Below, piece by piece: positions 22,444-27,565 of a stretch of 64,000 nt of DNA. The stretch's first letter is position 1. Each line of letters starts with the position of its first letter. The DNA is taken from NCBI GenBank assembly GCA_965262915.1, contig OZ253564.1, positions 1,120,001 to 1,184,000 on the forward strand, given 5' to 3'. A program made the position numbers and the translations under genes. This DNA comes from Candidatus Spongiisociaceae bacterium (GTDB lineage: Bacteria > Actinomycetota > Acidimicrobiia > Spongiisociales > Spongiisociaceae). The notes below the pieces were generated by a model. It was given only the letters and a program-made list of their open reading frames with translations. It did not search any database and had not been told where the DNA came from.

Positions 22444-22640
22444 TCCTGCGGCGCTTGGCCGGGCACCCCCGTAGGTCACGAAACCGTGGGCGACAAGTCC
22501 CGGGGGCTAAGACTCAGAGGTAGTCGTGACTTGAGAGGGCTGCGCTCTCAAGCGCAAGAATTTGCACACTACTGACGTATTACGAACCTTCTTGACCCAA
22601 GATGGATCGAAACCGCTCCTATACGGCTCGGAGGCCTCCT

Positions 22641-23912
22641 ATGCTGCTCGGGTTCCAGGTCACGAACCACCGCTCGTTCCTCGGACAAACGGACTTCTCG
22701 ATGATGGCCGTGGATAAGGATCGGTCGGCGACACGCTGCTTCGAGCGTCTCTCGGAACCGGTGCTGACCGTTTCTGGGATCTACGGCCCCAACGCTTCGG
22801 GGAAGTCTAATTTTCTATATGCCATTACATGGTTATCGAACGCTGTCAGGAGATCTCTTCGAGGCTGGGACGAGTTCATCCCCCGGGATCCCCACTTGAT
22901 AGGCGAGGGTCCGGCTAGGCCGTCGGTCTTCGATATGGCGATCGTTGTCGACGGGGTTGAGTATGAGTACCGGCTCGTGGTTGACGACTCAGCGGTGCTG
23001 TACGAAAGCCTTCATGGCTATCCCGAGCGGAGGAGACGAAGGTTGTTCGAGCGAGACAAGGACGAAATCGAGTTTCGACGCGGCTTGGGTGGTGCTCGTG
23101 GAGTAGACAGTGTCCTTACGTCGACCACGTTGGCGCTGTCCGCTGCCATGCGCTTCCGGATGCCCGATGTTGGCAGCGTAGGACGCGCTATCGCAGGAAT
23201 CCGTGCCGTCGGGATTAGATGGCCTGTGGCGGGTTTCAACCCCTACTTGGACTCGACACAGCGCCTGTTCGCTGGGGAAAGCGAAGGCCGTCAGTTGACC
23301 CTTGTCGACATGCCCACAGACCGAGACGTAGCCTTGGACTTGCTGCGCTGGGCCGATCCCGCAATCTCGGATGTGGAGTTTATCGAACGGGGCGAGAACG
23401 AGGACCAACCGGCTCGGGGTTCCGCCCGTCCGTCGCGTCGTCAGTTGCAGTTCGTTCGCCGAGTTGCCGATGCGGAGTACTCTCTGGGCTTCCGTGAGGA
23501 ATCTGCAGGGACGAAGACTTGGTTCCGACTATTGGGACCAGCTCTCGGAGCCCTTGGGAGAGGTCAGGTTCTGTTGTTTGACGAAATCGACGCAAGCCTC
23601 CATCCCCGGCTCTCTAGTCAGTTGATCCAGCTCTTCCAAGACCCCGCGTCCAATCCTCGCAATGCTCAACTGGTCTTCACGACTCACGATACGTCACTGC
23701 TCAACGTTTTGAATCGCGACGAGGTTTGGCTGACAGAGAAGAGATCCGACGGGTCATCGGAACTCGTCGCGCTTGCAGAGTATGGATCTGAGAAGATACG
23801 GAAGTCGTTGAATCTTGAGAGGGCCTATCTACAGGGTCGGTTCGGAGCTATTCCCGAACCCGACCAAATCGTGATCCGCCACGCCCTCGGGCTCGCTCTT
23901 GGAGAAAGGTGA
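22641..23912 (+). CDS. RloA-like AAA_21 ATPase
   Basis: IYGPNASGKSN, EESAGT, DEIDASLHP, QLVFTTHD, YLQGRFGAIP; GGAGG RBS. Confidence 0.9.
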   Translation: MLLGFQVTNHRSFLGQTDFSMMAVDKDRSATRCFERLSEPVLTVSGIYGPNASGKSNFLYAITWLSNAVRRSLRGWDEFIPRDPHLIGEGPARPSVFDMAIVVDGVEYEYRLVVDDSAVLYESLHGYPERRRRRLFERDKDEIEFRRGLGGARGVDSVLTSTTLALSAAMRFRMPDVGSVGRAIAGIRAVGIRWPVAGFNPYLDSTQRLFAGESEGRQLTLVDMPTDRDVALDLLRWADPAISDVEFIERGENEDQPARGSARPSRRQLQFVRRVADAEYSLGFREESAGTKTWFRLLGPALGALGRGQVLLFDEIDASLHPRLSSQLIQLFQDPASNPRNAQLVFTTHDTSLLNVLNRDEVWLTEKRSDGSSELVALAEYGSEKIRKSLNLERAYLQGRFGAIPEPDQIVIRHALGLALGER

Positions 23913-24310
23913 TGGCGAGATCTCGACAACGGGTACACAGGAGACGAAGACCTCGTAAAGTCGGCGTTCGTGTTCCACGAAAGACTTACCTCGTGTTCTG
24001 CGAGGGTGCGAGAACGGAGCCCGAATATATCAAAGCGCTCAAGCAAGAACCTGAGGTTCGTGCGCGTGCCTCCGTCCGGATCGGCAAGGACACAATCGGT
24101 ATCGCGCCTCCCTTGACCCTGGTTAGAGCGGCAGTCAAAGCCATCGATCGTGCCGAGGAGGAAAAGGCCGAAATCGATGAGGTTTGGTGCTTGTTCGATG
24201 TTGAGTGGCCCCACAATCACCCCAAACTGGCTCATCGCGTTTCAGTGGGGAGTGACGGTCGCGAGTAGGCCCCAGTTGGGTTTCCCGGCTCTTCGATGCT
24301 CCTATGGTTG

Positions 24311-25540
24311 TCAAATCGATGATGGGGCGGTTTGGTGGGTGTGCAGCCAGTTCTGGTATCGGGTGGCGAGGTGGTGGTTGTGGTCTCGGCCGTGTTCGAG
24401 TGCTGAGATGCGATTGGGGTGGGTTCCGACGGCTTGGGCGGTCTGGGTGAGGGTGATGCCGCGTTGTTGGCGTCGGGTGCGTAGGCGGGCGCAGTTCGGG
24501 GTTGGGTGCGGGTTGGTGAGGAGCCGGTAGATTTCTCGGGCGATGTGCCGCTTGAGGCAGCGGATGATCTCCTTTTTCTTCTTGCCCTCGGCCTTGCGTC
24601 GTGCCACGTAGGCTTTGGTGGCGGCGTCGGTGCGCATCCGGGTGGTAGCGATCCGCCATAGCGCGTTGTTGGCTTGGCGGTTGCCGCCCCGGTTGAGACG
24701 ATGCCGAAGGGTTCGTCCTGATGACGCCTGGACGGGGCTGGCGCCGCACAGCGCCGCGAAAGACCGTTCCGATTTCATTCGCTTGGGGTTGTCGCCGGCG
24801 GCGACCAACAACGCGGCGGCTGTGTCAGGACCGACACCTTCTGTGGCCAGCAGGGCCGGGTTGGCCTGGGCGCAGAGACGCCGGATCTCGGCTTCGAGTT
24901 GGGCGATCTCTACGTCGAGGGCCTGATACCGGCGGGCCAAATGCTGTAGGGCACGCTTCGCATACGCGGTGGTGGTGTGGTCTGTGCCGGGTCGGAACCG
25001 GGCACAGGTTTTGACCCGTGCTTTGAGATTCATGCCCTTTAGCTGGTGTTTTAGCGGCTCGGGAGCTGTTACGACCAGCGCATGTATCTGGTTAGCGGCC
25101 TGGGTGCGGGCCTTGACCGCGGAGCGGCGCACCACCCACAGCATCCGTATGCACTCGACCGGGCCCACACCGGACTTGGGAACCGCGGTTGCTTCGCCCG
25201 AGGCAGCTGCCCGAGCTGCCGCCTCGGCGTCGACGCTGTCGGTCTTGCCGCCCTTCTGGCGGCGTAGTTGGCGGTTGGGGCGGTTGACCTCCACCACCTC
25301 GATGTTCATCTCGGTCAGGTAACGGGCCAGGCCGGCGCCGTAACTACCCGTTCCTTCCACCCCAACCCGAACCAACTGTCCCCGCGACTCGAACCAGGTG
25401 ACCATTCGCCGATAACCGGATTCCTCCACCGCGAAAGACTCCGATCCCAGTACCCGCCCGACGCCATCCACCACCGCTGCTACGTGGACGTCCCGATGGG
25501 TGTCAACCCCACCGTAGATAATCTGGTCTGCTTCTCCCAT
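24311..25540 (-). CDS. IS110 transposase/recombinase with C-terminal HTH extension
   Basis: GGVDTH, GVEGTGSYG, KTDSVDA (DEDD), ASSG, HRLNRGGNRQAN, CLKRHIARE. Confidence 0.95.
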   Translation of the reverse strand: MGEADQIIYGGVDTHRDVHVAAVVDGVGRVLGSESFAVEESGYRRMVTWFESRGQLVRVGVEGTGSYGAGLARYLTEMNIEVVEVNRPNRQLRRQKGGKTDSVDAEAAARAAASGEATAVPKSGVGPVECIRMLWVVRRSAVKARTQAANQIHALVVTAPEPLKHQLKGMNLKARVKTCARFRPGTDHTTTAYAKRALQHLARRYQALDVEIAQLEAEIRRLCAQANPALLATEGVGPDTAAALLVAAGDNPKRMKSERSFAALCGASPVQASSGRTLRHRLNRGGNRQANNALWRIATTRMRTDAATKAYVARRKAEGKKKKEIIRCLKRHIAREIYRLLTNPHPTPNCARLRTRRQQRGITLTQTAQAVGTHPNRISALEHGRDHNHHLATRYQNWLHTHQTAPSSI

Positions 25541-25574
25541 GATGCTCTTCTCCTCTAGGGGATAGAATCATTTC

Positions 25575-25760
25575 CGATCCCCGGACCCGTGTGCGGTTGG
25601 ACAGGCCACTCACGGTGGAGAAGTTGAAGGCTCCTATTAGGTCACATCCGCCCCGGGTCAGGGGGTTACGCCCCAGGCCGGGAACGGGCCGACAGATCGA
25701 TGAAAAGGCACAAGGCCAGATTTCAGTTGGGTCAGACCCGCCCTAGCCCAGGAACCCTCC
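25575..25760 (-). ncRNA. Putative IS110 bridge RNA
   Basis: Contains segments matching the target (ACTGAAATC, TCGAT) and donor ends (ATAGGAGC, TGAGTGG) in the expected order; boundaries approximate. Confidence 0.75.
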
Positions 25761-25775
25761 AATTATGAGTGGATT

Positions 25776-27080
25776 TCAGTGGGGAGTGACCGATGCGAGG
25801 AGGTCCCAGTTGGGTTTCCCGGCGTAGAGAAGGGCGCGGATTCGGTAGTTCGCGAAGTTGGGTAACCCGAACGCTGCTCGTTTGATCCGCTTTATGAGGT
25901 TGTTGAGGGCTTCGGTGGCATCTGTTGGTTACCTTCGAGATGTGCCAGTTGGTGATCTGGGGGGTCCAGCGGGCGATGGTGCGACCCAGCTTGTTGATCT
26001 CGGGTGGGCAGGATTCGTCCTGGAGGTCGTCCGCGAGCCCGACGGTGTACCGGAGAGCAAGGACCGGACTTTCGATCCCGTAGATGCCCCGTACCGTTTC
26101 GGTCGCGTGCCAGGCTGTGCGTACCTCCCCGTGGGGGTCACCGGCGTCCAAAAGACCACGCAGCCGTGTTTGACCGCGGTCGCTGATCCTCTCATGCGCG
26201 GCGGTGAGGAGGCGGCGTATCCGATACAGCGGGTCATCCTTGCGGCCTCTGTGTCCCAGGGTTTCGTTTTGGACTCTTCGTCGTAGGTCGTCGAGACGCT
26301 GGTTGGCGAGGCGGCTGACACCGAACGGGTCCGCTACCCCGGGGGCGTGGGGCAGCACCCTGTCATACGCCTTCCGATACGAACCGGACATGACCCGACA
26401 CCGCCCAGCGGATAGCCTCACACCATTCGGTGGGCTGCGCCCGGAACCAGGCTGCGGCGCTTTCTGCCGTTCTACCACCGACTATGTCGAACCGGCTGGT
26501 GGCCTCCCACGTCGACGACAGAGGTGCACCAGACCTTGGTACGCCACCGGCCTTTCCGCCAGAACAACGCTTCTTGTCGATGCCCACAGCTTGGACCTCG
26601 CCTATCCGGTCGGTGTCGGCCCCCAGGAGGGCTTCGCCCCAGCGGCCGACCTCGTTGTTCACCGTATGCCACCCACAACCAAGCTCTGCGGCGACCTCGT
26701 CGACCGGGCGACCCCGCCCACCCACCCCGATGGTCACCCACCTCGCCGCTCGGGATGTCAACAACGCCCGTTGGGGACCAATCGTGGGGTCTTGCTCGAT
26801 GAACGATCTGAGCGCACAGTCGGTGTTCGGACATGTCCAACGGCGTTTCCGCCACCGCAGCCGAACCGGACGGCCGAACGCCGGTAAATCCACCAACACC
26901 ACCGTCCGCTCACCCTTGGACCACACCGGGCCACCACAGGCCTCACAGGACGGCCGGGGCTTGCGGGACCCGATCACCACCCCAAGCGGTGCACCCTCGC
27001 CCGAGTCGTTGATCCCTACCAGGTCAACGTCGCCTAGGCCTACCAACTTCTCGCACATGCGCGCAGGGATCAGCTTCCAC
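25776..27080 (-). pseudogene. ISL3 transposase, multiply frameshifted
   Basis: Zn finger CEACG..VDLPAFG..RWTCP; VADPF; HRGRKDDPLYRIRR; RIRALLYAGKPNW. Confidence 0.9.
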
Positions 27081-27565
27081 AGGGGTCCTCCTGCCTCGGA
27101 TGTCGCTTATCAACAGCCGATTATGGAGGACCCCTCCTCACTTCTGGTGGATTCCGATCCCCCCTGGCAGATCCCCTACTCCCCACCCATTCGCGAAGAG
27201 CCCCCAAACTCGACCAGACCGTGGCTCTCGCCAAGAGGAAGAATGTACAGATTGCTGTATCGAATCCAAGCTTCGAGTTATGGCTCGCTCTTCATTTTCG
27301 AGACTGTCCAGGATGGCTAGACACCAAAGCCGCGGAGAGGCTACGCAAGAGTCATGACGGCAGTACAGACAAGGGCGTGAATGGGGCAATGTACATGCGG
27401 ATGCGACTGATCGGGCTCTTGGTCTAGCAGAGAAGCACGAGAAACAGGGAACACGGTTTCCACACGACAACCCATCATCAGGTATGTACTTCCTCCTCCA
27501 AGCAGTCGACCCCACCATTACGTGAAACCCTGAGCTTCCCGGAGAGTGGCTTGGTTTGGGCTCGG

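What the first reader, a model, noticed from the sequence alone, without database searches (positions are those of the whole stretch)
24287..25785. IS110 whose bridge RNA appears programmed to target the terminal inverted repeat of ISL3
Seen (minus strand): junctions are ACTGAA-ATC-CACTCATAAT and ATAGGAGC-ATC-GAAGAGCC, so the empty site ACTGAAATCGAAGAGCC is an ISL3 end. The non-coding leader holds, in order, ACTGAAATC (25719-25727, identical to the left target), TCGAT (25696-25700, complement of the right target), ATAGGAGC (25630-25637, left donor) and TGAGTGG (25606-25612, complement of the right donor). Joining the ends makes TTGACA-17/18 bp-CATAAT. Known: this is the IS110 bridge-RNA layout (LTG, RTG, LDG, RDG) with a circle-junction promoter. 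Inference: an intact hyperparasitic element that homes to and disables ISL3 ends. The recombinase also has an extra C-terminal XRE-like HTH.
Basis: partly seen in the sequence, partly recalled or inferred. Interest (0 to 1): 0.8.

Follow-up and report, generated by a model that had tools for sequence, protein, structure and literature searches.

The report
Bridge-RNA IS110 element homing into ISL3 ends
This is an intact IS110-type jumping gene whose own guide RNA matches the end of another jumping gene (ISL3), so it lands there again and again; the mechanism is already known, but this genome shows it unusually clearly.

Summary
The element (window 24295-25770, minus strand, 1476 bp) encodes a 409-aa DEDD/Transposase_20 recombinase that aligns to IS621. 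Its 230-nt 5' leader has the bridge-RNA layout.

The genome provides a natural test. Seven guide types share one RNA scaffold. In 24 of 25 full elements the left and right target guides match that element's own flanks (9/9 or 8/9, and 5/5 or 4/5). The 42 non-cognate pairings average 4.8/9 and 1.4/5. Sixteen copies with this guide type sit in the right inverted repeat of one ISL3 lineage, 8 bp from its tip.

That the insertion "disables ISL3" is plausible but unproven. Occupied copies are mostly decayed (2 of 16 open, against 14 of 18 empty ones), but copy age confounds this.

Sister subfamilies target a second ISL3, an IS3-family, an IS21-family and another IS110-family element. Targeting of other elements' repeats has precedent (IS1383/IS1384, IS4321/Tn21). 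Verdict: new member of a known kind.

The parts
24295..25770 (-). IS110-family (IS110-group) element, 1476 bp, from ACTCAT... to ...ATAGGAGCATC
   Evidence: Ends shared by 24 full-length elements. Eight full copies are >=99.4% identical to this one.
25771..25772 (-). Core-equivalent dinucleotide at the left junction (CC). 25771 is the single C shared with the right junction (24295). 25772 is the target's own first core base.
   Evidence: Comparison of occupied and empty ISL3 ends. A C precedes ACTCATA in 43 of 47 motif hits.
25541..25770 (-). Non-coding left end that encodes the bridge RNA
25680..25745 (-). Target-binding loop: a 14-bp outer stem and a 3-bp inner hairpin stem enclose a 13x13 internal loop
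   Evidence: RNAalifold on 8 subfamily representatives. Compensatory changes occur at columns 12/77 and 14/75.
25719..25727 (-). Left target guide ACTGAAATC, identical to the flank at 25772-25780
25696..25703 (-). Right target guide TCATCGAT, the reverse complement of ATC+GATGA; the window's flank reads GAAGA (one mismatch)
25588..25656 (-). Donor-binding loop, closed by GAC (25641-25643) paired with GUC (25600-25602)
25630..25637 (-). Left donor guide ATAGGAGC, identical to the right end at 24298-24305
   Evidence: Guide and donor both change A to G in subfamilies C and C2.
25606..25612 (-). Right donor guide TGAGTGG, the reverse complement of CC+ACTCA at the left junction. Its last G pairs with the target's core base, as a handshake guide would.
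   Evidence: model taken from PMC11208158
25762..25767 (-). -10 hexamer CATAAT in the left end
24309..24314 (-). -35 hexamer TTGACA in the right end, overlapping the stop codon. It would lie 17 nt from the -10 only on an excised circle.
   Evidence: spacing counted by hand as 14 nt of right end plus 3 nt of left end
24311..25540 (-). Recombinase gene, 409 aa: DEDD_Tnp_IS110, Transposase_20 and a C-terminal HTH
24383..24490 (-). C-terminal helix-turn-helix (residues 351-386), beyond the region that aligns with IS621
   Evidence: By my own count, 67 of the 120 listed homologues carry PF13560.
24287..24294 (-). Outer 8 bp (GAAGAGCC) of the ISL3 right inverted repeat, cut off from the rest by the IS110 insertion
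25771..27202 (-). Host ISL3 element. Its transposase frame is broken into two ORFs of 231 and 248 aa. The stop codon TGA is at 25776-25778, five bases before the insertion point.
24229..24286 (-). 58-nt tail of a second ISL3 subtype (end ...ACTGAAACGCGATGAGCC) abutting the first

Best explanation
The element is an active IS110-group insertion sequence. By analogy with IS621, it should excise as a circle. Joining its right end (TTGACA) to its left end (CATAAT) would create a sigma-70-type promoter with 17-nt spacing, which would drive a bridge RNA of roughly 170-190 nt and the recombinase gene. The RNA has two loops. In the target loop, ACUGAAAUC would pair with the bottom strand and UCAUCGAU with the top strand of the right inverted repeat of one ISL3 lineage (...ACTGAAATCC|GATGAGCC). 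In the donor loop, AUAGGAGC and UGAGUGG would pair with the element's own joined ends. The DEDD/serine recombinase would then exchange strands at a single shared C. This places the element 8 bp inside the ISL3 tip, five bases after the ISL3 transposase stop codon and in the same orientation. What is shown here: the anatomy, the repeated site, guide-target covariation and recent multi-copy spread. What is inferred: RNA expression, the circle, the catalysis, and the consequence that the occupied ISL3 end can no longer be used for ISL3 transposition.
For: The protein has PF01548 (84 bits) and PF02371 (70 bits). It aligns to IS621 transposase 8wt6 at E 9.5e-12 over residues 7-345, and the Asp, Glu, Asp, Asp and Ser positions line up. 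There are 24 full-length elements, and 25 could be parsed for both guides and both flanks. Seven guide types share one scaffold, and cognate guide-flank matches hold in 24 of 25 elements, far above the 42 non-cognate pairings. Relatives in three other genomes show matches of the same kind. The consensus fold puts both target guides in an internal loop closed by a 14-bp stem that has compensatory changes. Sixteen ISL3 right ends are occupied at the identical position. The IS110 copies are >=99.4% identical to each other, while their ISL3 hosts are only 85-99.9% identical to a reference copy, so the insertions were independent. A second lineage, 81% identical, keeps the same guides. The ISL3 left repeat differs at 4 of 9 guide positions, and no left junction lies at one. 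The right-donor-guide position opposite the first core base matches the target's base in 5 of 7 guide types, as the published handshake model predicts (PMC11208158 passages).
Against: There are no RNA data and no circle junction in hand. The single-sequence fold is not better than shuffles (z -1.47). No Rfam family matches. In the consensus fold, parts of the two donor guides are drawn as paired in weak local hairpins. On the real 18-nt target the two target guides do not overlap at the core as they do in IS621: the left guide stops one base short, with a U opposite the bottom-strand G. Subfamilies E and C2 share this offset; B, C, D and F do not. The window's own right flank has one mismatch to the guide. 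One element with these guides sits at an unrelated site.
Confidence: 0.9

Rival explanations
1. The IS110 element uses ISL3 ends only as harmless, multi-copy landing sites (a safe harbour). It is not a hyperparasite that suppresses ISL3. Occupied ISL3 copies look decayed only because older copies have had more time both to decay and to be hit.
For: In the young ISL3 clade (98-100% identical to the reference copy), 10 ends are empty and 3 are occupied; 13 of the 16 occupied copies are older lineages. Two occupied copies still have a full 445-codon frame. ISL3 has continued to expand with many intact copies.
Against: The insertion separates the outer 8 bp of the inverted repeat from the rest, which should prevent use of that end. 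Among older-lineage copies, 0 of 13 occupied but 3 of 8 empty ones keep >=445 open codons (Fisher p = 0.042). When the two most divergent or fragmentary empties were left out, this was 3 of 6, p = 0.021.
Confidence: 0.35
2. The copies did not arise by homing. The IS110 was carried passively when a composite ISL3+IS110 unit transposed or was duplicated.
For: Every copy is in the same orientation and at the same position inside ISL3.
Against: The IS110 copies are >=99.4% identical, but their host ISL3 copies are 85-99.9% identical to a reference and belong to at least five tail subtypes. Flanks beyond the ISL3 tips are unique. The insertion splits the ISL3 repeat.
Confidence: 0.03
3. The recombinase protein chooses the target, for example through its extra C-terminal HTH, and the leader-flank identities are incidental.
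For: There is an HTH beyond the IS621-like core.
Against: Subfamilies built on the same 409-aa recombinase plan and the same RNA scaffold insert at seven different sites. Each site matches that subfamily's own guide segments, with the strand polarity expected for a bridge RNA.
Confidence: 0.03

Closest known systems
IS621 and the IS110-group bridge-RNA recombination system (Durrant et al. 2024, PMC11208160; Hiraizumi et al. 2024, PMC11208158; passages read)
   Same: Both have a DEDD RuvC-like domain plus a Tnp domain with the catalytic serine. Both have a long non-coding left end upstream of the gene, and a two-loop RNA with left and right target guides and left and right donor guides. Both have a -35 in the right end and a -10 in the left end. 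Both have an invariant second core base and a variable first one, and handshake positions next to the right guides.
   Different: The invariant core base is C rather than T (donor TC; targets CC, AC or TC). In three of seven guide types the left target guide ends one base before the shared C. The recombinase carries about 60 extra C-terminal residues with an HTH. The target is another insertion sequence rather than a REP element.
IS1383, which integrates into the inverted repeats of IS1384 (Muller et al. 2001; seen only as a title in the reference list of PMC11208160). A table in PMC5141477 lists IS1383 as IS110 family and IS1384 as IS5 family.
   Same: An IS110-family element whose specific target is the inverted repeat of another insertion sequence.
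   Different: The target family is different (IS5 versus ISL3) and so is the host (Pseudomonas). I could not read the paper, so the insertion position and the RNA cannot be compared.
[quoted passage not shown]
   Same: A DEDD-transposase element that homes into the terminal repeat of another mobile element in one orientation.
   Different: Those elements belong to the IS1111 group, with the non-coding region downstream of the gene and subterminal inverted repeats. Here the RNA lies upstream, and only 16 nt follow the stop codon.

Membership tests
IS110 family, IS110 group | N-terminal DEDD RuvC-like domain (PF01548) with the four acidic residues | tested here: met
   PF01548 scores 84.1 bits against a cut-off of 29. 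The vDt, vEgtg and ktDsvDa motifs align with the same residues of IS621.
IS110 family, IS110 group | C-terminal Tnp domain (PF02371) with the conserved serine | tested here: met
   PF02371 scores 70.4 bits against a cut-off of 21.3. The SG of '...qaSSGrt' aligns with the 'yeSG' of IS621.
IS110 family, IS110 group | Long non-coding region upstream of the gene and none downstream; no long terminal inverted repeats | tested here: met
   The left end has 230 nt before the ATG, and 16 nt follow the stop codon. I did not run a repeat search on the ends.
IS110 family, IS110 group | Site-specific, orientation-specific insertion with a 1-2 bp shared core | tested here: met
   Sixteen insertions are at the identical position and in the same orientation, and one C is shared.
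Bridge RNA (IS621 type) | Two internal loops, each with a left guide identical to the top strand and a right guide complementary to it, for target and for donor | tested here: met
   Covariation holds over seven guide types. The consensus fold supports it clearly for the target loop and less cleanly for the donor loop.
Bridge RNA (IS621 type) | Both target guides include the core dinucleotide | tested here: inconclusive
   This holds for B, C, D and F. In A, E and C2 the left guide ends at the first core base, and a U lies opposite the G of the second.
Bridge RNA (IS621 type) | The RNA is transcribed from a promoter rebuilt on the circle and is bound by the recombinase | not testable with these tools
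   Only the two hexamers and their 17-nt spacing can be read. All runs found were held as assembled contigs.
IS1111 group | Non-coding region and guide RNA downstream of the gene, with subterminal inverted repeats | tested here: not met
   Only 16 nt follow the stop codon, and the guides lie upstream.
ISL3 family (the host element) | DDE_Tnp_ISL3 transposase with an N-terminal zinc ribbon and HTH, terminal inverted repeats and an 8-bp target duplication | tested here: met
   PF01610 and PF14690 were found on the two ORF pieces. The repeats read GGCTC[T/A]TCGGA..., and an intact copy has the 8-bp duplication AATAAACT. The window's block has the 8-bp duplication AGTTTGGG.
XRE-type helix-turn-helix | A Pfam HTH_3 or HTH_31 match at or above the curated cut-off | tested here: met
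   HTH_31 scores 27.6 against 27 and HTH_3 scores 25.2 against 23, but only the first 33-36 profile positions match. No structure was predicted.

The most novel reading that the evidence does not exclude
This genome holds a radiation of one IS110 lineage whose bridge RNAs have been re-programmed at least seven times. Each time the new target is the terminus or the transposase gene of another insertion sequence: two ISL3 lineages, an IS3-family element, an IS21-family element and another IS110-family element. Together these would form a within-genome network of parasites on parasites that holds other insertion sequences in check. Because the donor ends are shared, one subfamily's RNA could also guide another subfamily's circle. 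One copy appears to have been placed in that way.
Probability: 0.4. Interest if true: 0.65.

Novelty: new member of a known kind. Interest (0 to 1): 0.5.

Why it matters
Bridge-RNA recombinases are being developed as programmable genome-writing tools, and most rules for them come from one element, IS621.

This single genome offers a natural re-programming series: seven guide sets on one scaffold, each with occupied and empty sites. It suggests four things:
- A different invariant core base (C) is used.
- The first core base need not match between donor and target, and it stays on its own side of the junction.
- The handshake positions track the target.
- A one-base offset between the two target guides is tolerated.

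It also adds ISL3 to the list of mobile elements whose ends are used as landing sites by IS110-family elements. It gives a testable case of one insertion sequence limiting another.

Tried and rejected
Single-sequence folding of 25541-25771 gave a z-score of -1.47, which is not informative by itself. I used the comparative fold instead.

The Rfam scan of 24000-26200 gave only two sub-threshold chance hits, radC and CRISPR-DR8.

The guides fit the 17-nt form without any offset, and the one 17-nt empty end has the same tail subtype as four occupied copies. I rejected it as the main reading for these reasons:
- An occupied copy is 99.93% identical to the young clade with 18-nt ends.
- Empty ends in four other genomes are 18-nt.
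- Subfamilies E (4 of 4 empty sites) and C2 (2 of 2) show the same one-base offset.

The 17-nt form may still be a usable target as well.

I recalled IS1384 as an ISL3-family element. A table in PMC5141477 lists it as IS5 family, so I dropped that claim.

I searched the genome for a joined right-end/left-end junction and found 0 hits.

For public reads, 24 runs were listed, all held as assembled contigs. I laid four of them. No joint that goes back (a circle) was reported, and no contig bridged an empty form of this locus. The one long skip (24251 to 25801) has a 23-nt side and 15 replaced letters, and it lies between two similar ISL3 tails. Contigs cannot show rare circles, so this says nothing either way.

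Literature: four searches were run. Judging by titles and abstract starts only, none of the listed papers describes an IS110-family element targeted to ISL3 repeats. Supplementary tables of natural IS110 targets, which I could not open, may list such cases.

Full report
**Observation.** On the minus strand the window reads ...GTCACTCCCCACTGAAATCC|ACTCATAATTGG... at 25790-25760 and ...TTTGACAACCATAGGAGCATC|GAAGAGCC at 24316-24287. The only long frame inside is 24311-25540 (409 aa). It carries DEDD_Tnp_IS110 (84 bits), Transposase_20 (70 bits) and a short C-terminal HTH, with HTH_31 at 27.6 bits and HTH_3 at 25.2 bits, both just above their cut-offs. It aligns with the solved IS621 transposase (8wt6, E 9.5e-12) over residues 7-345, with the acidic residues and the serine in register. 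About 60 residues, including the HTH, lie beyond that alignment.

**Copies.** The window's genome is one 5.06-Mb contig. A DNA search with the element found 47 places. Nine are 99-100% identical over at least 1465 of 1499 bases, and about sixteen are 79-82% identical. A motif scan found 33 right ends and 24 full-length elements. Eight full copies are >=99.39% identical to each other and all keep the open frame. A second lineage about 81% identical (A2, eight full copies) is open in all but one.

**The natural experiment.** I aligned the leaders of eight subfamily representatives (my labels: A, A2, B, C, C2, D, E, F). This revealed an invariant scaffold interrupted by variable segments:
- The 9 nt before the conserved TGGC equal the left flank of the same element.
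- The 5-8 nt before the conserved GATCTGTC are the reverse complement of its right flank.

Over the 25 elements for which both guides and both flanks could be parsed, there are seven guide types. Cognate matches are 9/9 (8/9 in two elements) and 5/5 (4/5 in six) in 24 elements. The 42 non-cognate pairings average 4.8/9 and 1.4/5, and none reaches both >=8 and >=4. The left donor guide changes from A to G together with the donor in C and C2. Relatives in three other genomes show matches of the same kind.

**Structure.** RNAalifold on the eight sequences gives a target loop with a 14-bp outer stem (compensatory changes at two pairs) and a 3-bp inner hairpin stem. These enclose a 13x13 internal loop that holds both target guides. 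A second loop is closed by GAC/GUC and holds the donor guides. Parts of the donor guides are drawn in weak local pairs with little covariation. The single-sequence fold is uninformative, and Rfam has no matching family.

**The target.** I found 42 right ends of this ISL3 type by their conserved transposase tail. Their states are:

| State of the right end | Count |
|---|---|
| Followed by the IS110 left end | 16 |
| Empty, reading ACTGAAATCCGA[A/T]GAGCC | 18 |
| Empty, reading ACTGAAATCGATGAGCC | 1 |
| Other subtypes | 7 |

An intact copy shows the ISL3 boundaries: inverted repeats GGCTC[T/A]TCGGA... and an 8-bp duplication. The IS110 therefore sits 8 bp inside the right tip, five bases after the transposase stop codon, and always in the same orientation. 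The ISL3 left repeat differs from the guide at 4 of 9 positions. No left junction in the census lies at one.

**Which empty form is the target?**
- The occupied copy at 4456796 is 99.93% identical to a young clade whose listed members all have the 18-nt end.
- Empty ends in four other genomes also have the 18-nt end, and a fifth genome has an occupied end.
- A C precedes ACTCATA in 43 of 47 motif hits across all subfamilies.

I therefore read the element as ACTCAT...GCATC. One C is shared, the target core is CC and the donor core is TC.

The same asymmetry is seen in D (target AC), F (AC) and E (CC), judged against their own empty sites: the target's first core base stays at the left junction and the donor's T stays at the right. 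This fits the published description of IS621 (passages read in PMC11208158):
- The second core base is nearly invariant.
- The first core base is variable.
- After strand exchange, the right guides pair with the incoming strand of the other DNA.

Here the position of the right donor guide opposite the first core base matches the target in five of seven guide types. The corresponding position of the right target guide always matches the donor.

One thing remains unexplained. In A, E and C2 the left guide stops one base before the shared C, whereas in B, C, D and F it includes it. Durrant et al. mention off-target sites that tolerate an insertion in the target (passage in PMC11208160).

**Independence of the insertions.** The IS110 copies are far more alike (>=99.4%) than their ISL3 hosts, which are 85-99.9% identical to a reference copy. 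Flanks outside the ISL3 tips are unique. The copies are therefore separate homing events, not passengers.

**Does it disable ISL3?**
- Open frames of at least 414 codons upstream of the stop occur in 14 of 18 empty copies but only 2 of 16 occupied ones (Fisher p = 1.8e-4).
- With a threshold of 445 codons the figures are 13 of 18 against 2 of 16 (p = 6e-4).
- Age confounds this, because most occupied copies belong to older lineages.
- Within older lineages the figures are 0 of 13 against 3 of 8 (p = 0.042).

Splitting the repeat 8 bp from its tip should block use of that end. That is an inference, not a result.

**The wider pattern.** The sister subfamilies also sit in mobile elements:
- D lies 12 nt inside both terminal repeats of a second ISL3 lineage (408-415 aa; PF01610 at 196-201 bits). 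C and F lie at two subterminal sites of the same element.
- E lies 13 nt inside a repeated end next to an HTH_21+rve (IS3-type) gene, and four empty sites exist.
- C2 and a further group lie in two sub-repeats of the left end of an IstA/IstB (IS21-type) element.
- B lies inside the gene of another IS110-family transposase.

One A2-type element (genome 3663632-3665110) matches its own guides at only 5/9 and 1/5. By my own hand comparison of the flanks, it matches subfamily B's guides at 8/9 and 4/5. The guide-covered donor segments are identical between B and A2. Hiraizumi et al. report that the two loops in the complex come from different RNA molecules. Guidance in trans is therefore the simplest reading.

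**Prior knowledge.** The mechanism is that of Durrant et al. and Hiraizumi et al. (passages read). IS110-family elements that target other elements' inverted repeats are on record: IS1383 into IS1384, and IS4321/IS5075 into Tn21. I saw only the titles of those papers. A table in PMC5141477 lists IS1384 as IS5 family. Four literature searches listed no paper on an ISL3-directed IS110, but I could not open supplements that tabulate natural targets.

**Verdict.** The element is a new member of a known kind in an unusually informative genome.

Noticed in passing
window 22602-24228 and 27203-27427: An AAA_21 ATPase gene (22602-23912) is followed by an RloB-like gene that the ISL3/IS110 block splits. 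The block (24229-27202) is flanked by the 8-bp direct repeat AGTTTGGG. The RloB frame resumes after it (...SNPSFELWLALHF...).
   Followed up: partly
window 24229-27202: The host ISL3 is a hybrid. Its left repeat and the 58-nt outer tail are of the 'CGCG' subtype, while the inner right repeat that carries the IS110 is of the other subtype. Its transposase frame is broken into pieces of 231 and 248 aa. This looks like a nested insertion followed by recombination between the two copies.
   Followed up: partly
L038:3944-5407 and L038:6731-8194 (genome 541943-546193): One copy of the second ISL3 lineage carries a subfamily D IS110 in each of its two terminal repeats, in inverted orientation.
   Followed up: partly
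L014 (genome 3663632-3665110): An A2-type element sits at a site that fits subfamily B's guides (8/9 and 4/5) and not its own (5/9 and 1/5). It is a candidate for guidance in trans. Three similar empty sites exist in a repeated proline-rich-looking sequence.
   Followed up: partly
L009 (genome 4175372-4176854) and genome 274361-276604: ISL3 copies have in turn inserted into IS110 copies. One IS110 is cut at base 1465 by an inverted ISL3 end. Another is split near base 759 by an ISL3 that itself carries an IS110.
   Followed up: no
genome 161508, 3355588, 3624725, 3765783 and others: Further left ends of the same type (C|ACTCATACTGG...) have scaffolds that my patterns did not parse. Four of them share the flank TAGCCCTGATTC. 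Their targets were not worked out.
   Followed up: no
window 24100-24228: In run X6 a 2362-nt contig follows the window up to 24228, the outer edge of the ISL3 block, and then continues for about 480 nt that do not lie on the laid stretch. It may come from a strain without the insertion.
   Followed up: no
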